From: a virus
DNA: 64,000 nt
IMG/VR virus record: IMGVR_UViG_3300025154_000069
Coordinates: 1-64,000 of that record
Strand: one strand, 5' to 3'
Shown: positions 4,942 through 64,000 of the stretch, piece by piece
How the letters are laid out: every line of letters starts with the position of its first letter
How positions within the stretch are numbered: the first letter of the stretch is position 1
Notes under the pieces: generated by a model
The model's database searches: none
What the model saw: only the letters and a program-made list of their open reading frames with translations
Told to the model about the DNA's origin: nothing
Program-made: the position numbers and the translations under genes

Positions 4942-5689
4942 AGTATTTCAAAATTGCACGGTTTATGTAAATACGGTTTACGGAAATGTTATTAAGCTCC
5001 CTGATGTTCAACTTGACAGACAGGTTTACATGGAGGTTAAAAAAGCCTTTGAGGGTATTGGGGGAAAATGGGTCGGAGGTAAGGTTTACGGCTTTAAATT
5101 CAACGCAGACCCTACGGAACTGTTGGAAAAACTTGCCGGAGGTGACAAAATAAACCTTAAAAAGGATTATCAGTTCTTCGAGACTCCGAGTGATATTGCG
5201 GACTATGTGGTAGAGATGGCCGGACTGAAAGAAGAGCATATGATATTGGAGCCGAGTGCGGGTCACGGGGCTATGTTGAAAGCAATAAACAAGATTTTTC
5301 CCGGTAAAGAGGTTGACTGCTACGAATTAAGCCCGGATAATAGGAAAGTGCTGTTGAAAGAGACAGTATTATTCAAAGCTGCGGTTCTCGGAAACGACTT
5401 TATGACAAGCGATCTTTCGATGAGGTATGATAGGATAGTTGCCAATCCCCCATTTACAAAGAATCAGGACATAGTTCATATCCAAAGAATGTATAAGCAC
5501 CTAAAACACGGGGGTAGATTGGTTTCTATTGCTTCTAAGCATTGGGAGATTTCAAACAACTCGGTGGAGACTGAATTTAGGAACTTTCTTTGCGAGGTAA
5601 AGGCAGAGATAAGCCCATTGCCAAAGGGCAGTTTTAAGGAAAGCGGCACAGAAATAGCAACAAACATAATAGTAATCAATAAAAAATAG
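4928..5689 (+). CDS. SAM-dependent amino-DNA methyltransferase (likely N6-adenine)
   Basis: Motif I ILEPSAGHG, catalytic IVANPPF, C-terminal F.ESGT. Confidence 0.85.
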   Translation: MEKIEVFQNCTVYVNTVYGNVIKLPDVQLDRQVYMEVKKAFEGIGGKWVGGKVYGFKFNADPTELLEKLAGGDKINLKKDYQFFETPSDIADYVVEMAGLKEEHMILEPSAGHGAMLKAINKIFPGKEVDCYELSPDNRKVLLKETVLFKAAVLGNDFMTSDLSMRYDRIVANPPFTKNQDIVHIQRMYKHLKHGGRLVSIASKHWEISNNSVETEFRNFLCEVKAEISPLPKGSFKESGTEIATNIIVINKK

Positions 5690-5695
5690 ATAAGA

Positions 5696-5878
5696 ATGAA
5701 CGGATATAATGTCGGTGACAAGGTTATGCTCCCGAATTTTGAGGAGGGGGTGATTGAAAGCATAGAAAAGGGACTTACTCATTATCCCTTTAAGGTTAGG
5801 ATAACAAGGGCAGTTTTTAGCACTGTGGATGAGATACAGGAATTTGGCTCCGGAACACTTGATTTATTTAATTGGTAA
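5696..5878 (+). CDS. Small KOW/SH3-like hypothetical protein
   Basis: YNVGDKV start followed by a beta-rich pattern. Confidence 0.55.
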   Translation: MNGYNVGDKVMLPNFEEGVIESIEKGLTHYPFKVRITRAVFSTVDEIQEFGSGTLDLFNW

Positions 5879-5882
5879 TGCT

Positions 5883-6512
5883 ATGAAAGAATTACAAAGC
5901 TTAATGGATGATATTTCCACGTGGTCGAATGCTACGTTTGGGAAGTATGATCGAACAAAGTCGATAACGCACCACTTGAAAAAAGAAGTTGACGAGTTGT
6001 TACAGGTATTAGAAGAGGTATACTCTGTAGTCAGAGATGAGAGTATAGGTGTGGTGGAGACCAATAAAAAGATTCAAAAAGCAAAGATGGAATATGCCGA
6101 CTGCTTTATGTTGCTGTTGGATTCTGCATACCACTTTGGCTTAACTGCCGAAACTATTTTTGAGGTAACCCGCCAAAAGCTCGAAGTAAATAAACACAGG
6201 CATTGGGGTAAACCGGATAAAAACGGAGTTGTTGAGCATTTAGAATTTGTCAAATGCGGGTGTTATAAATGTGATACTACTGCAAATAAAGAAGAAGGGC
6301 AGCAAAATATGTCGAAGGAAGAGGCTGTATTGTCTATGGCTATGGGAGATAAGGTCACTCATAGATTTTTCGAGAAAGGTGAGTGGATGAGCATGAAAGA
6401 TGGAATGATAATACTTGATGATGGTGCTACCTGCACCCCTTATGAATTTTGGGAAAAGCGAAAAGGGTTCGGTTGGAGTGACGGCTATTCTATTTACAAA
6501 GAAAAAAATTAG
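5883..6512 (+). CDS. DUF550-like (MazG-fold) dATP/dGTP pyrophosphohydrolase fused to a small C-terminal domain
   Basis: HLKKEVDEL...EYADCFMLLLD...KLEVNKHRHWGKPD..GVVEH pattern; ATG 5883 preferred to the track start. Confidence 0.75.
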   Translation: MKELQSLMDDISTWSNATFGKYDRTKSITHHLKKEVDELLQVLEEVYSVVRDESIGVVETNKKIQKAKMEYADCFMLLLDSAYHFGLTAETIFEVTRQKLEVNKHRHWGKPDKNGVVEHLEFVKCGCYKCDTTANKEEGQQNMSKEEAVLSMAMGDKVTHRFFEKGEWMSMKDGMIILDDGATCTPYEFWEKRKGFGWSDGYSIYKEKN

Positions 6513-29978: not shown

Positions 29979-30248
29979 ATGCAAAGAGTTAATCCACACA
30001 CAAGAAAAAATACTTTTGTAAGAGGCTATGAAAGAAAGAAACTTACTAAAACGGGGAAGAGTATGGTGGATAGTAAGGTTCATAAGGTGATGCATGAGTT
30101 CAAGTATAAAACTTTGCATTCTTATGGAGGAAGGGGGAAAGTAGGAAAGTTGGTTACAGAAAGACCCCAAGCAATAGCAATAGCATTGAGTGAGGCAAGT
30201 AGGATTAAAGGATTGAATAAGTTTGTTTCAAAGAAATTTAAACGATAA
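29979..30248 (+). CDS. Small basic protein B with DUF6496-like domain
   Basis: VNPHTR..FVRGYER plus KVMHEFK..LHS...VT...QAIAIALSEA. Confidence 0.75.
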   Translation: MQRVNPHTRKNTFVRGYERKKLTKTGKSMVDSKVHKVMHEFKYKTLHSYGGRGKVGKLVTERPQAIAIALSEASRIKGLNKFVSKKFKR

Positions 30249-30433
30249 TGGCACAGGTAAAGGAGTATACCCGTAGAACCAAAAAGGGTAAAACGTGCAG
30301 AGTTGCTTCTCACAACAGAGCATCCGGAGGTAAGATGAAAAATGTTCGGGCAGGTGCAGGTCATACTTTTACACGCCCCAAGATTTCTTATACCCAATCC
30401 GGAAGAGGTTTATTTATGAGCAATAACCGATAA
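30248..30433 (+). CDS. Small highly basic protein C (paralogue of A)
   Basis: First 15 residues MAQVKEYTRRTKKGK identical to protein A. Confidence 0.75.
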   Translation: MAQVKEYTRRTKKGKTCRVASHNRASGGKMKNVRAGAGHTFTRPKISYTQSGRGLFMSNNR

Positions 30434-60139: not shown

Positions 60140-60628
60140 GTGGAAAAGAAAACTACAAATAGGCGAACATGGAAAAACTTCGAGACCGAGGTTGCCAAGA
60201 TGTTTGGAACGAGCAGAACACCTCTTAGCGGTGCGGTTCAAAGTTTAACAAGAGCAGATACTCTCCACGCTAAATTGTTTTTTGAGTGTAAGCTCAGGAA
60301 TGAAGATCACCCTTTTGTTATTTTACACAAGATTTTTTCCAACCATAATAAGACCGTTATAGCCTGTGATAGCCTTTTAATTATGCACGATTCGGTGTTT
60401 GATGAGTTATACAGAACTAAGCTTACGGTAAAAAAGATTAGGCTAACACACAAAATTGTATATAAGAATTTAAAAAGTATTGTAACTTTGTACGACAAAA
60501 CAAGAGAAAAGGCAGAAATTGAGAAGAAAATACCGGTAGTTGCCATAAAGATTAAAAGCAAAAGGGGGTTCTTCTTGGGGTTTGACCTTAAAGACTATCA
60601 AGAAATTTTAGACTACTATGGAGAATAA
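60140..60628 (+). CDS. Second PD-(D/E)XK resolvase-like nuclease
   Basis: WKNFE.EVA...R.PLSG...D...FECK...KIPVV. Confidence 0.7.
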   Translation: MEKKTTNRRTWKNFETEVAKMFGTSRTPLSGAVQSLTRADTLHAKLFFECKLRNEDHPFVILHKIFSNHNKTVIACDSLLIMHDSVFDELYRTKLTVKKIRLTHKIVYKNLKSIVTLYDKTREKAEIEKKIPVVAIKIKSKRGFFLGFDLKDYQEILDYYGE

Positions 60629-60914
60629 AAGCAGCATTTTGTTTGTAAAAAGTACAACGCCAACCAAACAGTTAGCATCCTCGATCGTATTGAAATATGA
60701 ATCGGAAGGAGCTAAGGTAATCGTTTTACGGTCTATTGGAGCCGGGAGCATAGCACAGTGTACTTATGGAATCCTTGTCGCAAAGGGAATACTCGAAAAA
60801 AAGGGAAAATCGGTGTCGATGGATTTCAAGTATGTCGATGTTATAAATACCCGGGAAAACAAAGATACAAAGCCGAAAATAACTGCGGTGGAGTATACGG
60901 TCTCCGTATATTAA
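60618..60914 (+). CDS. SpoVS-like (Alba-fold) protein
   Basis: V...T....LASSI......LRSIGAGSIAQ....I.VAKG...ITA resembles the SpoVS IGAGA.NQ..KA.A.ARG pattern. Confidence 0.7.
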   Translation: MENKSSILFVKSTTPTKQLASSIVLKYESEGAKVIVLRSIGAGSIAQCTYGILVAKGILEKKGKSVSMDFKYVDVINTRENKDTKPKITAVEYTVSVY

Positions 60915-60944: not shown

Positions 60945-61334
60945 ATGTTAGAAGTTAAGATTATTCCTAAAAGGAGTGAATCCTTTAAGTTAATTTATGT
61001 TGAAGGAGAAATATTGAAGCTTTTCGGTGAGAGGATAAAGGGTTATTTTTTAATTGACACGGGAGCCACACTATCCATTATACACAGTAATTATTCGGAC
61101 TTCCTTAGAGATACAGAATCAATAACGCTTGTAGGTGTTACAGGACAGAAAAAAACCAAGCATGGAATACTTGATATTGAGATCGGGGGTAGTAAATTTA
61201 CCATAATGAATGCGGTTTCTTCTGACTTTAAACCTATGAAAAAGGGTACGTACTTAGGCATATTGGGCTTAGATTTCCTTATAGAAAATAGCTGTACTAT
61301 AAATTTAGTTGAAAATATTTTGCATATTAATTAA
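60945..61334 (+). CDS. Retropepsin-like aspartic protease
   Basis: FLIDTGAT.S, flap GVTG, GILGLDFL. Confidence 0.9.
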   Translation: MLEVKIIPKRSESFKLIYVEGEILKLFGERIKGYFLIDTGATLSIIHSNYSDFLRDTESITLVGVTGQKKTKHGILDIEIGGSKFTIMNAVSSDFKPMKKGTYLGILGLDFLIENSCTINLVENILHIN

Positions 61335-61349
61335 AAGGTGTTATCTTTG
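61319..61349 (+). promoter_or_regulatory. Consensus Bacteroidota promoter for the peptide gene
   Basis: TTTG-N19-TATCTTTG. Confidence 0.8.
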
Positions 61350-61406
61350 TTTCAACTAAAGTATACTACATGTTGTATTTTTAAAAAGGTTTAAAATTTT
61401 ATAGCT

Positions 61407-61526
61407 ATGAAAAAGACCATCGTTTTAGGTGTGGGCGCATTAGCCAAATCTGCAATTTCAAGAACAAGAAGTTTGGTTCAAAGATCAAATGCATTTAACG
61501 CCACATTAGCCGGAGGCGGAAGATAA
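61407..61526 (+). CDS. 39-aa peptide MKKTIVLGVGALAKSAISRTRSLVQRSNAFNATLAGGGR (not in ORF track)
   Basis: Only ORF between a consensus promoter and a strong terminator; AT-rich leader. Confidence 0.75.
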   Translation: MKKTIVLGVGALAKSAISRTRSLVQRSNAFNATLAGGGR

Positions 61527-61552
61527 GTACCCTCCAAACTAATCGCACATAC

Positions 61553-61582
61553 TAAGCACCTATAATCAGGTGCTTATTTTTT
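61553..61582 (+). terminator. Rho-independent terminator
   Basis: TAAGCACCT-ataatc-AGGTGCTTA plus T run. Confidence 0.85.
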
Positions 61583-61610
61583 AAGTTTAAGAATCTATAT
61601 TTTGGCAGTC

Positions 61611-64000
61611 ATGACTTCATATGAAGATAAATTCGTTCCTTTTTTAGCAGTAACCCCAAACAAGCAATTTTTCAATTTATTTCAAAGAGCCGGGGTTAAG
61701 AATATCCTTATTTCCTACTACTACATAAAAAAGAATCCAAGTCTTGCAAGAGATTTTATGGATTATGCTTCCTCGGTTGGTGGACTTGTTATGGTTGACT
61801 CCGGGGTTTTTACTTTATATGCCGAGAAAAAGGTGAGGGAGGATGATGAGTACCTTAAATTCCTTGAAGAGTATGTTAGGTTCCTACACACAGATAAGAA
61901 CAGAATTTTCTCTGCCTGTAACTTCGATATGGATATACTTTTCGGGTATGATAAAATAGATAAATGGAACGAAAAATTCTTTGAGCCGTTAGAAGGGGAT
62001 ATTAACATCATATATGCGGTGCATCCGATTGGCAACCACAACCCGCTAACACGATTTAAGGAATACTCAGAAAAATATAAGTATTTAGCTATAAACGAGG
62101 ATTTAACCAAATATGCACAAAGTATTTATCAGTTAGCTAAGAGAACGGGAACCAATATACATGGGTTAGCATGGACTAAACCTACTTATTTAAAGCAGTA
62201 CCCATTCTTCTCGGTCGATAGTGTTACAGGAGATTCTGTTGTAGACATTCAAATTGATGGGGTATCTATGAGTATACCTATTGAAGAGTTATATAGGTTT
62301 TTTTCTCCAACAGCAGTAGAAAATTCTAAGGGTCAATTTGTGACTAATCCGGACAATGTAAATGCTTTAACCCTAAATAAAGACAATAAACTTATATGGT
62401 CTAAACTTTCCGGTGTTCTTATGCATGCAGTAAAAAAAGAGATGTTTAAAATCACCTTGGAGGGAAATATAAGTATTGATGTAACCTCTGACCACTCTTT
62501 AATTTCTATGGATAAAGATGGGTTACTTTATGAACTTAAACCCAACAGCTTAACTACTGATAGTTTTTTGCTGTATAAAAAATTTTCCCCCAATAAAAAT
62601 AGCGATGTTCCTTTCATAGATTTTACAATAGACCCTAAAAAATACAGTCACATAGCTGGGGAGCACAGAGTTGTTCTCGATGAGATATTTCTTAATTTTC
62701 TTGGGTATTGGGTTGGAAATGGGCATTTTGATAAAGGAAATATTTGTATTTCCGGGTATCAGTATTCGGAGGTCGCCAAAATTATTGAGCGAATAGCAGA
62801 GAGATATGAAAGAACGGTTAACATAAGGGATAATGGTATAGATTGCTATATAAGCTGTACTTGGTTAGCAACCCTTATGCGGCATATGGGATTTTTAAGT
62901 GGTTCAGCTAACAAAAGTATTCCAAACATTATTTTTACTTTATCTACCAAACAAATTTGTTGGTTTTTAAAGGGATATTATTCTGCTGATGGTAGTGGCT
63001 ATTCTGCAAGTTGTTCAACAATATCTAAATCTTTATCTCTTGATTTGTCCACTATTTTAAGTAACTTAGGGATAATATTCAGCCTAAGTAAAAAAGAGGG
63101 TAAGATAGGCGGGTATAGTAGTGGAAAAAGCACTCTATACACTATAAGTATAGTAGACACCAATAGTAAAAAGGTATTCTTAGAAAAAATAGGCTTCCTA
63201 CAGGATTACAAGACAAAGATTATTGGGGATGAGATAGCAAAAAGGGTGGGTAAGAATCAGGTATGGAGTAAAAAATTAGGTGTTCCCAAGGTACTATCTC
63301 TTAAAGGCAATATAAAGCATAAAAAGTATTCTGCATCAATTAGCTCTATAAAAGGTTGGAGAATAAATAGAGAAAATAACAGAGGATTTTTTTCTGATAA
63401 AGTGTTGGACTCAGATGTTCTATTTCTTAAAGTAGTAGCTATTGATAAGTATGTTCCCGATGATGATATATTGGTATATGATCTTTGTGTTCCGGAGACA
63501 GAAAACTTTATAGCTAACGGTGTTGTAGTGCATAACAGCTCTTCTTGGGTAGGCTATCAAAAGTACGGCTCTACTGTTTACTTTGATGGGAAGGAGTTTT
63601 ATCAGTATGATAACAAGAAAAAAGATATACGGAAGAGCTTGCGCCCATACTGTATTAAGTATGGTGTTAAATTTTATGAGTATGTTAATGAAAAAGATGA
63701 AAAGACGGGGGCGCACAATGATGGCGAAGGATTGACGTTTTCTATAAAAAGTTGGCTTGAAGTGTTGGAATCTATCAAAAAAATTGCTAATTTTAAACTA
63801 AAAACAAAAATCAAGGACATGATAAAGAATGATAAGCTCGTTGAATCCGTCACAGACTCGGAAGAGGATGATGAAGAAGGTATGAGCCTGAGTGAGGCGG
63901 TTGCCACTACAGAAAGCGGTGCAGCAGCTTATGAGTTGGTTATAGCAAAAGATGTAATTTCTTATGACAATATTCCAAATACGCATAAGAACATTATGCT
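61611..64000 (+). CDS. TGT-fold, DpdA-like DNA guanine transglycosylase; intein-containing; runs off the window (not in ORF track)
   Basis: Hand-translated open frame: ILISYYY, VDSGVFT, NFDMD, AVH, IHGLA, YPFFSVD|SSSW..YG; acidic linker near the window end. Confidence 0.8.
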   Translation, partial: MTSYEDKFVPFLAVTPNKQFFNLFQRAGVKNILISYYYIKKNPSLARDFMDYASSVGGLVMVDSGVFTLYAEKKVREDDEYLKFLEEYVRFLHTDKNRIFSACNFDMDILFGYDKIDKWNEKFFEPLEGDINIIYAVHPIGNHNPLTRFKEYSEKYKYLAINEDLTKYAQSIYQLAKRTGTNIHGLAWTKPTYLKQYPFFSVDSVTGDSVVDIQIDGVSMSIPIEELYRFFSPTAVENSKGQFVTNPDNVNALTLNKDNKLIWSKLSGVLMHAVKKEMFKITLEGNISIDVTSDHSLISMDKDGLLYELKPNSLTTDSFLLYKKFSPNKNSDVPFIDFTIDPKKYSHIAGEHRVVLDEIFLNFLGYWVGNGHFDKGNICISGYQYSEVAKIIERIAERYERTVNIRDNGIDCYISCTWLATLMRHMGFLSGSANKSIPNIIFTLSTKQICWFLKGYYSADGSGYSASCSTISKSLSLDLSTILSNLGIIFSLSKKEGKIGGYSSGKSTLYTISIVDTNSKKVFLEKIGFLQDYKTKIIGDEIAKRVGKNQVWSKKLGVPKVLSLKGNIKHKKYSASISSIKGWRINRENNRGFFSDKVLDSDVLFLKVVAIDKYVPDDDILVYDLCVPETENFIANGVVVHNSSSWVGYQKYGSTVYFDGKEFYQYDNKKKDIRKSLRPYCIKYGVKFYEYVNEKDEKTGAHNDGEGLTFSIKSWLEVLESIKKIANFKLKTKIKDMIKNDKLVESVTDSEEDDEEGMSLSEAVATTESGAAAYELVIAKDVISYDNIPNTHKNIM
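62220..63536 (+). mobile_element. Intein with LAGLIDADG domain in the DpdA-like gene (439 aa)
   Basis: N-term SVTGDS, block B VTSDHSL, FLGYWVGNG, KSIP, FLKGYYSADG, VYDLCV..ENFIANGVVVHN|S. Confidence 0.93.

What the first reader, a model, noticed from the sequence alone, without database searches (positions are those of the whole stretch)
60945..64000. Stand-alone 39-aa peptide ending LAGGGR between a retropepsin protease and a DpdA-like base-exchange enzyme: candidate undescribed peptide system
Seen: an ORF below the track cutoff (61407-61526) has its own consensus promoter (61319-61349) and terminator (61553-61582), so it looks like a dedicated transcript. It has MKK plus a 10-residue hydrophobic stretch, an Arg/Ser-rich middle and a C-terminal GGG-R. 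Its neighbours are a DTG aspartic protease and a TGT-fold enzyme. Known: ubiquitin-like and sulfur-carrier proteins are activated at a C-terminal Gly-Gly often exposed by a protease, and arbitrium AimP precursors are about 40 aa with MKK, a hydrophobic core and a C-terminal active peptide. Inference, two alternatives: (a) the protease trims the peptide to a Gly terminus that carries or is conjugated in a DNA modification or protein-tagging reaction; (b) it is a processed signalling peptide. No E1-like enzyme or TPR receptor is visible in this window, and the adjacency may be coincidental.
Basis: partly seen in the sequence, partly recalled or inferred. Interest (0 to 1): 0.8.

Follow-up and report, generated by a model that had tools for sequence, protein, structure and literature searches.

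The report
Cationic micro-gene beside phage DNA-modification genes
The 39-codon gene looks real and is this phage's version of a tiny, strongly positively charged peptide that many phages keep next to the genes that replace guanine in their DNA; it is not a ubiquitin-like tag or a signalling peptide, and its function is untested.

Summary
The promoter, however, is the Bacteroidota type (TTTG / TAnnTTTG), not sigma-70. Codon usage says the ORF is coding, and the transcript body is not structured.

The peptide has no sequence homologue. But about 80 related phage loci, and Bacillus phage BCD7, carry a 30-72 aa, acid-poor, strongly cationic low-complexity ORF in the same slot. That slot lies within the SpoVS-like / QueC / DpdA module. 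Where examined, the ORF has its own promoter and terminator. Indels between strains are always multiples of three.

The C-terminal GGGR is not conserved, and the complete genome has no E1-like enzyme. A protease gene lies in the module in four lineages: retropepsin here and in one relative, S26 peptidase in two others. Most of those lineages have a peptide with a hydrophobic N-terminal pre-sequence.

Best reading: an abundant nucleic-acid-binding polycation, possibly protease-matured, that works with the 7-deazaguanine module.

In gut-phage relatives, but not in this window, the micro-ORF follows a pseudoknot leader supported by covariation. The same leader precedes queC in other phages. This scan has already reported that queC leader on other genomes.

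The parts
60140..60628 (+). Resolvase-like nuclease gene (162 aa), the first gene of the conserved syntenic block
   Evidence: PHROG 2002, Holliday junction resolvase, E 4e-8. tblastn finds it upstream of the SpoVS-like gene in nearly all related loci.
60618..60914 (+). SpoVS-like (Alba-fold family) gene, 98 aa
   Evidence: Pfam SpoVS 28.4 bits, cut-off 24. Conserved next to the micro-ORF or Que genes in relatives, and in Bacillus phage BCD7 and L041.
60945..61334 (+). Retropepsin-like aspartic protease gene, 129 aa, with DTGA and GLDFL motifs
   Evidence: Pfam RVP 22.6 bits, cut-off 20.7; PHROG 21241, protease. The only homologue found in the same slot is L035 4595-4987.
61319..61349 (+). Bacteroidota-type promoter: -33 TTTG at 61319-61322 and -7 TATCTTTG at 61342-61349
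   Evidence: One of 8 such composite motifs on the + strand, against about 1 expected. It is the only one between 34679 and 69873.
61407..61526 (+). 39-codon micro-ORF: net charge +7, no Asp/Glu, hydrophobic residues 4-13, RGG-like C-terminus
   Evidence: It occupies the same slot as the polybasic micro-ORFs of relatives.
61553..61582 (+). Intrinsic terminator, 27 nt after the stop codon
   Evidence: Each of the 13 related micro-ORFs examined has a hairpin plus T-run 20-31 nt after its stop.
61611..64000 (+). DpdA-like 7-deazaguanine DNA transglycosylase gene. It carries a Ser-initiated LAGLIDADG intein at about 62220-63536 and a fused C-terminal Cys-rich domain. The ORF runs to 64385 of the genome.
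   Evidence: Pfam Intein_splicing and LAGLIDADG_3; tblastn to phage DpdA/TGT genes; ORF end and the QueC/QueD/QueE genes downstream.

Best explanation
The 39-codon ORF is a genuine micro-gene. It is transcribed from its own Bacteroidota-type promoter and closed by a strong terminator. It is this phage's representative of a positionally conserved, sequence-hypervariable class of short polycationic, acid-poor and probably disordered peptides. These peptides accompany the SpoVS-like / Que / DpdA (7-deazaguanine DNA-modification) module.

Mechanism (inferred):
- The peptide acts through its charge. It binds and neutralises nucleic acid in the manner of protamines, histone H1 tails or phiX174 protein J.
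- It is made in large amounts from the short terminated transcript. The downstream enzymes would be made from read-through.
- In this phage the hydrophobic first 13 or so residues, which end in Ala-Leu-Ala, are probably a pre-sequence. The adjacent retropepsin-like protease would remove it, leaving a cationic peptide of about 25 aa.

Shown: the anatomy, the coding signal, the conserved slot, the compositional conservation and the in-frame evolution in relatives.

Inferred: nucleic-acid binding, abundance, cleavage, and any functional coupling to DpdA.
For: 1. Coding signal. Codon usage favours the ORF frame (+0.22 against -0.59 and -0.61 per codon; 0 of 75 off-frame ORFs reach it). The RNA body is no more structured than shuffles (z = 0.10).

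2. Self-contained unit. The promoter motif is about 8-fold enriched on the coding strand and a terminator follows.

3. Same slot in relatives. The IMG/VR loci with a SpoVS-like gene, most of the metagenome loci and two GenBank phages carry a 30-72 aa ORF at the same place. Net charge is +7 to +18, with 0-2 acidic residues in all but one. It lies between the SpoVS-like gene and QueC-like/DpdA on the same strand. In 447 kb of DpdA loci, 33 strict polybasic ORFs lie in the slot. The 20 elsewhere are mostly one recurrent off-frame ORF.

4. Selection on charge, not sequence. Lineages use Arg/Gly, Lys/Ala/Pro or Lys/Pro repeats.

5. Translation in relatives. In three strain-level groups all ORF indels are multiples of 3 (3, 27; 6, 24, 42; 3, 9, 39). 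The ORF is the most variable segment, with 4-12% variable columns.

6. Transcription architecture. A TAnnTTTG box lies 44-94 nt upstream in 13 of the 14 micro-ORFs examined, and a hairpin plus T-run lies 20-31 nt downstream in all of them. In gut-phage relatives there is no promoter before the next gene.

7. The link to the Que/DpdA genes extends beyond Bacteroidota phages. L202 has a 47-aa basic ORF between QueC and FolE. Bacillus phage BCD7 has two tandem basic ORFs of 69 and 72 aa between QueC and FolE/DpdA.

8. Protease link. A retropepsin follows the SpoVS-like gene here and in L035. An S26 peptidase precedes it in BCD7 and L041. The N-terminal hydrophobic heptad scores 2.53, 1.97 and 1.66 in three of the five protease-linked peptides. 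The maximum among 27 protease-less types is 1.11 and the mean is -0.17.
Against: - There is no detectable sequence similarity between the window peptide and any counterpart (shuffle p 0.24-0.97). Membership rests on position, size, composition and transcription architecture only.
- The window peptide is the least extreme member. Net +7 without acidic residues occurs in 8 of 175 random small ORFs. It narrowly fails my strict composition filter (0.718 against 0.72, by my count).
- The protease correlation rests on four lineages, at most two independent events per protease type. L041 is not hydrophobic (-0.06) and L035 is intermediate (0.89).
- There is no expression, proteomic or binding evidence for any member.
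- One low-coverage contig (L165) has ATG changed to AGG.
- The structured leader that marks the gut-phage micro-ORFs is absent here.
Confidence: 0.5

Rival explanations
1. Regulatory leader ORF. The micro-ORF and terminator would form an attenuator-type 5' leader of the dpdA-que operon. Translation or stalling on the polybasic, Gly- or Pro-rich tract would set read-through. The peptide itself would have no function.
For: - In gut-phage relatives no promoter lies between the terminator and the QueC-like gene, so the enzymes must be made by read-through.
- The promoter at 61319 is the only full promoter motif between 34679 and 69873.
- In relatives the unit starts with the same pseudoknot leader that precedes queC elsewhere.
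- Composition is conserved, not sequence.
Against: - The stop codon lies 20-31 nt before the terminator stem, too far for a terminating ribosome to affect it.
- The window transcript shows no alternative antiterminator structure or excess folding.
- L005 and L035 have a separate -7 box after the terminator.
- Charge is kept through Lys/Arg exchange with different codons, which argues for selection on the product.
Confidence: 0.15
2. Not a gene. The promoter-to-terminator unit would give a small non-coding RNA, or the spacer is only punctuation between operons, and the ORF is accidental.
For: - The peptide has no homologue among 1.84 billion representatives apart from itself.
- Basic, acid-free small ORFs are fairly common by chance in this genome (8 of 175).
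- No RNA or protein evidence is available.
Against: - Codon usage is gene-like in frame only.
- The RNA is not structured and has no Rfam match.
- An ORF of the same size class and charge sits in the same slot in all related lineages and evolves by in-frame indels.
Confidence: 0.1
3. Exported or signalling peptide. MKK plus the hydrophobic core would be a Sec signal cleaved after Ala-Leu-Ala, releasing a 26-aa peptide that acts outside the cytoplasm, as in arbitrium.
For: The N-terminus looks like a signal peptide. Its best heptad hydropathy is 2.53 and an AXA motif sits at residues 11-13.
Against: - No receptor-like or TPR gene is adjacent. The neighbours are the SpoVS-like gene, the retropepsin and DpdA.
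- None of the 27 protease-less counterpart types has a comparably hydrophobic N-terminus (maximum 1.11 against 2.53 here).
- The C-terminal part is not conserved anywhere.
- From my own knowledge, arbitrium is known from Bacillus-type phages, whereas this phage has Bacteroidota-type promoters.
- SignalP could not be run.
Confidence: 0.05
4. Carrier or tag. The protease would expose a C-terminal Gly that is activated and conjugated, ubiquitin- or ThiS-like, or attached to a 7-deazaguanine.
For: C-terminal GGGR; an adjacent protease; PP-loop (QueC-type) adenylating enzymes in the module.
Against: - The GGGR end is not conserved in any counterpart.
- The complete genome has no ThiF/E1-like gene. 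The only JAB-like hit is a weak one far away (11.9 bits, which I read as RadC-type from its HNHPSG motif).
- 39 aa cannot form a beta-grasp fold.
- The retropepsin is missing from most lineages that have the peptide.
Confidence: 0.03

Closest known systems
Microviridae protein J (phiX174 J, about 20-38 aa DNA-packaging protein) - from my own knowledge
   Same: Tiny, Lys/Arg/Gly/Pro-rich, acid-free phage peptide with a short hydrophobic end. It acts by neutralising genome charge and its sequence is poorly conserved.
   Different: J belongs to ssDNA phages and lies in the structural operon. There is no Pfam or PHROG match here. This peptide sits in a DNA-modification module of a 79-kb tailed-phage-type genome. 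Virion association is untested.
Protamine-like core peptides of eukaryotic dsDNA viruses (adenovirus pre-Mu/pVII, baculovirus P6.9; PMC6163548, PMC5899202)
   Same: Small arginine-rich DNA-condensing peptides. The adenovirus ones are made as precursors trimmed by a viral protease (my own knowledge), which parallels the protease-plus-pre-sequence pattern seen here.
   Different: No homology. Nothing of this kind turned up for tailed phages in the papers I searched. Condensation and cleavage are not shown here.
Bacterial H1-like Lys/Ala/Pro repeat tails (HupB/Hlp C-terminal domain, AlgP, chlamydial Hc1) - from my own knowledge
   Same: The AKKAP-type and KPKP-type variants (L020, L035, L185, L196) have the same repeat chemistry, known to bind and compact DNA.
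   Different: Those are domains of larger proteins or proteins of more than 100 aa. The window peptide has no such repeats.
Arbitrium AimP pre-peptide
   Same: About 40 aa, MKK plus a hydrophobic core, phage-encoded, stand-alone.
   Different: No AimR-like receptor next to it, no conserved C-terminal mature peptide, and counterparts lack the signal-like N-terminus.
Ubiquitin-like / ThiS-MoaD sulfur carriers
   Same: A Gly-rich C-terminus near a protease.
   Different: Too short for the fold, no E1 in the genome, and the C-terminus is not conserved.
preQ1-I riboswitch (Rfam RF00522; review PMC11625349), for the leader seen in relatives only
   Same: H-type pseudoknot with an A-rich third loop, located in front of queC.
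   Different: No Rfam match even at E<=10 on 100-nt stretches. L2 is 1 nt and L3 is about 15 nt. The UC/AC specificity dinucleotide before the 3' strand of P1 is not present. It is absent from this window.

Membership tests
Polybasic micro-ORF class of the SpoVS-like/Que/DpdA module (defined here) | Lies on the gene strand within the SpoVS-like / Que / DpdA block | tested here: met
   Window order is nuclease, SpoVS-like, retropepsin, micro-ORF, DpdA. The relatives have the same block.
Polybasic micro-ORF class of the SpoVS-like/Que/DpdA module (defined here) | 30-72 aa, net charge +7 or more, at most 2 acidic residues | tested here: met
   39 aa, +7, no Asp/Glu. This is the lower edge of the class range of +7 to +18.
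Polybasic micro-ORF class of the SpoVS-like/Que/DpdA module (defined here) | Low-complexity A/G/R/K/S/T/P-rich composition (0.66-0.74 in the few members where I computed a comparable fraction; higher by eye in the repeat-rich gut types) | tested here: inconclusive
   The fraction is 0.64, which is unusual for this genome (2 of 175) but lower than typical members. The hydrophobic N-terminus accounts for the deficit.
Polybasic micro-ORF class of the SpoVS-like/Que/DpdA module (defined here) | Own -7 TAnnTTTG promoter upstream and an intrinsic terminator 20-31 nt after the stop | tested here: met
Polybasic micro-ORF class of the SpoVS-like/Que/DpdA module (defined here) | Detectable sequence homology to other members | tested here: not met
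   Local alignment scores are within the shuffle range. phmmer finds only the peptide itself. Members of different lineages are not alignable with each other either, by eye.
Polybasic micro-ORF class of the SpoVS-like/Que/DpdA module (defined here) | Pseudoknot leader (NCGGUU..RRGC-U-AAUCGN'..AAUAC..GCYY) before the ORF (gut-phage subclass only) | tested here: not met
   Regex and covariance-model searches of the whole 79-kb genome give a best hit of 11.5 bits, E 0.6, elsewhere in the genome.
Ubiquitin-like / sulfur-carrier proteins | Beta-grasp domain of about 65-100 aa with a C-terminal Gly-Gly | tested here: not met
   39 aa, ends GGGR. No Pfam hit.
Ubiquitin-like / sulfur-carrier proteins | Cognate E1/ThiF-type adenylating enzyme | tested here: not met
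   PF00899 is absent from the complete genome while all 14 control genomes are detected.
Arbitrium AimP | Adjacent AimR-type receptor gene and a conserved mature C-terminal peptide | tested here: not met
   The neighbours are the SpoVS-like gene, the retropepsin and DpdA. The C-terminus has no relatives.
Arbitrium AimP | Functional Sec signal peptide | not testable with these tools
   Only a crude hydropathy value (2.53) and an AXA motif are available. No signal-peptide predictor was on hand.
Microviridae J / protamine-like DNA-condensing peptides | Sequence-family membership | tested here: not met
   No Pfam or PHROG family matches the window peptide or two counterparts.
Microviridae J / protamine-like DNA-condensing peptides | Binds and condenses the genome; present in virions | not testable with these tools
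   Needs a gel-shift assay and virion peptidomics.
Retropepsin-like aspartic protease (neighbour gene) | hydrophobic-hydrophobic-D-T/S-G-A active-site motif, about 100-130 aa, Pfam RVP at or above the gathering score | tested here: met
   LIDTGAT motif, 129 aa, RVP 22.6 bits against 20.7. Dimerisation and activity were not tested.

The most novel reading that the evidence does not exclude
The polycationic micro-proteins would be dedicated, stoichiometric partners of the phage DpdA/SpoVS-like 7-deazaguanine DNA-modification machinery. For example, they might hold or compact DNA for genome-wide base exchange, or shield DNA that is not yet modified. In some lineages they would be made as pro-peptides matured by a module-encoded protease (retropepsin or S26). 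In gut Bacteroides phages they would be placed under a new 7-deazapurine-responsive pseudoknot riboswitch together with queC-like and dpdA.
Probability: 0.2. Interest if true: 0.85.

Novelty: new variant of a known kind. Interest (0 to 1): 0.6.

Why it matters
Genes of 30-70 codons with low-complexity products are routinely missed or dismissed. Here one such gene recurs beside the DpdA/Que genes in dozens of gut and environmental phage lineages and in a cultured Bacillus phage. It is not mentioned in the 7-deazaguanine paper I checked (PMC10516641).

If the peptides coat or condense DNA, they would be a protamine-like component of tailed-phage biology. They would also be a missing accessory of a DNA hypermodification pathway that defeats restriction.

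Two cultured phages, Bacteroides phage BS162P1 and Bacillus phage BCD7, make this directly testable. The finding also shows that the phage queC-leader pseudoknot can control something other than queC.

Tried and rejected
Searches that gave nothing useful:
- Single-sequence scans of IMG/VR with the retropepsin, the DpdA N-extein and a two-row retropepsin alignment found no relatives.
- tblastn of the peptide against phages gave only chance matches to lactococcal tape-measure genes, E 0.4 or higher.
- phmmer against 1.84 billion representatives found the peptide itself plus a 1101-aa tandem acyl-carrier-domain protein. That score is summed over repeats, so I rejected it as chance.
- The ESM Atlas gave no usable hit.
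- Rfam gave nothing in the window region, in relatives or in queC leaders.

Tools and data that were unavailable or uninformative:
- Sequencing runs: no RNA holder listed.
- The three groundwater samples hold identical sequence, so there is no variation for a dN/dS test.

Ideas considered and rejected:
- Remnant of a Rossmann N-terminus (VLGVGA looks like GxGxxA). Rejected because no homologues exist and the ORF ends at the terminator.
- Split-off first quarter of the DpdA barrel, a lead from earlier scan notes. Rejected because the N-extein aligns with DpdA homologues annotated or readable as single ORFs and counterparts of the micro-ORF are low-complexity.
- Iterons or a packaging site, to explain the tandem repeats in relatives. 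Rejected because of the fixed ATG, in-frame indels and charge conservation across different repeat units.

Not run:
- Complex prediction, because an enzyme-substrate pair is a poor use of it.
- Structure prediction of the peptide, because it is an orphan and probably disordered.


Full report
**Setting.** The window is bases 1-64000 of a 79,079-bp virus record with direct terminal repeats, estimated complete. The long ORFs that tile the genome all lie on the + strand. The same sequence occurs without any difference in three groundwater samples from two studies. The composite Bacteroidota promoter motif TTTG-N18-22-TAnnTTTG occurs 8 times on the + strand and 2 times on the - strand, against about 1 in shuffles. 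The host is therefore probably a Bacteroidota bacterium.

**Observation.** The gene order around the finding is:
- a resolvase-like nuclease (60140-60628; PHROG 2002);
- a SpoVS-like gene (60618-60914; Pfam 28.4 bits);
- a retropepsin-like protease (60945-61334; RVP 22.6 bits against a cut-off of 20.7, DTGA motif);
- the 39-codon ORF (61407-61526);
- a DpdA homologue from 61611, interrupted by a LAGLIDADG intein.

The DpdA ORF runs to 64385 and is followed by QueC, two unknown genes, QueD and QueE.

The sigma-70 scan sees no promoter at 61319-61349. The site is a full Bacteroidota-type promoter, TTTG at 61319-61322 and TATCTTTG at 61342-61349. The terminator is confirmed, with stem 61553-61576 and a T-run.

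**Is it a gene?**
- Using the phage's 59 long ORFs as a model, the ORF scores +0.22 log2 units per codon in frame and -0.59 and -0.61 in the other frames.
- None of 75 off-frame small ORFs reaches +0.22. The value sits at the 15th percentile of 38-codon windows from true genes.
- The predicted transcript body folds no better than shuffles (z = 0.10).
- Rfam finds nothing.
- Net charge +7 without acidic residues is not rare by itself (8 of 175 small ORFs). The A/G/R/K/S/T/P fraction of 0.64 is rare (2 of 175).

**Relatives.** The peptide has no sequence relatives. phmmer against 1.84 billion representatives finds only the peptide itself and a chance hit summed over repeats. tblastn against phages gives noise.

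I collected related loci through DpdA:
- two GenBank phages, Bacteroides phage BS162P1 and MT835482;
- 37 IMG/VR loci;
- 46 metagenome loci.

The block of nuclease, SpoVS-like gene, a variable stretch and DpdA is conserved. Wherever the SpoVS-like gene is in view, a small ORF sits in the slot of the window's ORF, with one exception that has lost its start codon (L165). These ORFs are 30-72 aa, with net charge +7 to +18 and 0-2 acidic residues in all but one. They are built from Arg/Gly, Lys/Ala/Pro, Lys/Pro or Thr/Arg repeats.

In 447 kb of DpdA loci, 33 strict polybasic ORFs lie in the slot. The 20 found elsewhere are mostly one recurrent off-frame ORF.

The 14 micro-ORFs I examined in detail, the window's included, all have a hairpin plus T-run 20-31 nt after the stop. 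Thirteen of them have a TAnnTTTG box 44-94 nt upstream; L041 has only a relaxed match.

In three strain-level groups all indels in the ORF are multiples of three (3, 27; 6, 24, 42; 3, 9, 39). The ORF is also the most variable segment, with 4-12% variable columns. This is the signature of a translated, fast-evolving product selected for composition.

**The link reaches beyond this phage group.**
- L202 has a 47-aa basic ORF between QueC and GTP cyclohydrolase I, just before DpdA.
- L041 has a 40-aa ORF in a QueD-QueE-QueC...FolE-DpdA cluster.
- Bacillus phage BCD7 has two tandem ORFs of 69 and 72 aa between QueC and FolE/DpdA. They are G/R/P/T-rich with net charge +13 and +11.
- BCD7 and L041 also carry the SpoVS-like gene (71.9 and 77.4 bits) at the head of the cluster.

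**Caveat on membership.** The window peptide shows no similarity to any counterpart beyond composition, and it is the least extreme member. Its assignment rests on slot, size, charge and transcription architecture. The closest layout is L035: SpoVS-like gene, retropepsin, promoter, micro-ORF, terminator. There the micro-ORF is an unambiguous AKKAP-repeat peptide.

- The C-terminal GGGR is not conserved; counterparts end in SKS, GNS, RRR, GAN, GAGS and others.
- GGR and RGG recur only as part of the composition.
- The complete genome has no ThiF/E1-like gene, while the control genomes are all detected.
- The only JAB-like signal is a weak hit 16 kb away, which I read as RadC-type from its motif.

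There is no receptor-like neighbour, and the 27 protease-less peptide types have no hydrophobic N-terminus comparable to the window's.

**Protease.**
- The retropepsin occurs only here and in L035. It is absent from the closest relative by DpdA (L005 record, 98% complete), from BS162P1 and from two other records.
- BCD7 and L041 instead carry an S26/S24-type peptidase gene immediately before the SpoVS-like gene (52.8 and 54.4 bits).
- So two unrelated protease families occupy the same neighbourhood in four lineages.
- Their peptides begin with a non-basic stretch. The first seven or eight residues are MKKTIVL (window), MKNVHFL (L035), MLFMNVFA and MLFLNVYA (BCD7) and MMKVYA (L041). All other types start directly with MA[KR], MGTTR or the like.
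- The best N-terminal hydropathy heptads are 2.53, 0.89, 1.97, 1.66 and -0.06. The 27 protease-less types have a mean of -0.17 and a maximum of 1.11.
- This is suggestive, not clean, and not phylogenetically corrected.
- It favours N-terminal maturation of a pro-peptide, not C-terminal trimming.

**Transcription logic.** In the gut-phage relatives only about 20-35 nt separate the terminator's T-run from the QueC-like start, and this stretch contains no -7 box. QueC-like and DpdA must therefore be expressed by read-through. L005 and L035 have a -7 box after the terminator. The window has only a near-match, TATATTTTG, 9 nt before the DpdA ATG.

A strong terminator after a first small cistron gives much short mRNA and little enzyme mRNA. 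That fits a product needed in bulk. It also keeps a purely regulatory leader-ORF role alive as a rival.

**Leader RNA in relatives (not in this window).** Between the -7 box and the micro-ORF, the gut-phage clade has an invariant-core motif that folds as an H-type pseudoknot.
- In 45 distinct sequences the P1 closing pair is G-C 14, U-A 20, A-U 4, C-G 5 and U.G 2, so 45 of 45 are paired.
- P2 pair 3 is A-U 32, G-C 10 and G.U 3.
- P2 pair 4 is G-C 24, C-G 13, A-U 5 and G.U 1, so 43 of 45 are paired.
- Within strains the promoter-plus-leader segment has 0 variable columns in 100.
- The same motif lies about 25-35 nt before the queC start in 32 distinct environmental phage sequences. Pfam confirms QueC, with QueF downstream, in the one contig checked.
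- Rfam 15 has no match, even at E<=10 on 100-nt stretches.
- A covariance model built from the motif finds nothing in the window's genome or in L005, L035, L040, L041 or L202.
- Earlier reports of this scan already describe the queC-leader pseudoknot on many other genomes. What is new here is its use in front of the polybasic micro-ORF operon.

**Literature.** The paper on four further 7-deazaguanine derivatives (PMC10516641) holds none of the terms riboswitch, intein or Bacteroid-. I did not search it for small basic proteins. My searches for protamine-like or H1-like small proteins in bacteriophages returned only eukaryotic-virus and capsid-tail examples. The closest functional analogues are phiX174 protein J, the adenovirus and baculovirus core peptides, and bacterial AKKA-repeat tails. 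These comparisons rest on my own knowledge and on PMC6163548 and PMC5899202.

**Verdict.** The two proposed mechanisms are not supported. The idea of an undescribed peptide system next to DpdA is supported in a different form: a cationic micro-protein class, here possibly matured by the retropepsin. Function is inferred from composition and context only.

Noticed in passing
L003:3963-4017, L004:3930-3984, L006:5036-5090, L020:4971-5026, L032:4893-4946; queC contigs such as L043:4851-4904: An H-type pseudoknot leader supported by covariation (core CGGUU..GCUAAUCG..AAUAC) precedes the polybasic micro-ORF in gut Bacteroides phages and queC in 32 environmental phage sequences. It has no Rfam match and is absent from the window genome. 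The queC version was already reported by this scan on other genomes.
   Followed up: yes
window 62220-63536; L026/L028 (732 aa) against L027/L034 (308 aa); L003 (322 aa, the longest ORF): The LAGLIDADG intein in DpdA sits right after the conserved FFSVD motif, starts with Ser, and ends HN followed by Ser. Near-identical gut-phage strains differ by presence or absence of an intein at the same site, which is a homing polymorphism.
   Followed up: partly
window 63839-64000 and L002:3900-4385; L003:5890-6645: The C-terminal Cys-rich and helical domain is fused to DpdA in this phage, in L202 and probably in BCD7. In BS162P1 it is a separate 251-aa gene.
   Followed up: partly
L206:351-1036 (Bacillus phage BCD7 gp032-gp031); L041:380-989: An S26/S24-type peptidase gene directly precedes the SpoVS-like gene at the head of the Que/DpdA cluster. 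This is the same neighbourhood the retropepsin occupies in the window, where it follows the SpoVS-like gene.
   Followed up: partly
L006/L008/L010/L159/L164 micro-ORFs (for example L008:5063-5239): The copy number of a roughly 30-nt repeat (peptide unit GGxGRRTATR) varies between otherwise near-identical phages, giving products of 33 to 58 aa.
   Followed up: yes
window 30248-30433: A second small basic ORF (61 aa) lies in an otherwise gene-free gap between 29966 and 30435. It has no Pfam hit.
   Followed up: partly
L003:2570-3574: In BS162P1 the resolvase-like nuclease is fused behind an HNH/I-HmuI-type homing endonuclease domain, giving a 334-aa protein annotated as DNA endonuclease.
   Followed up: no
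L165:3100-3106: One low-coverage human-gut contig has the micro-ORF start codon changed from ATG to AGG, with two further nearby substitutions. This is either sequencing error or a natural null allele.
   Followed up: partly
L002:5072-5452 and 5465-5923: Two genes of unknown function (126 and 152 aa) sit between QueC and QueD. They have only sub-threshold Pfam or PHROG matches.
   Followed up: partly
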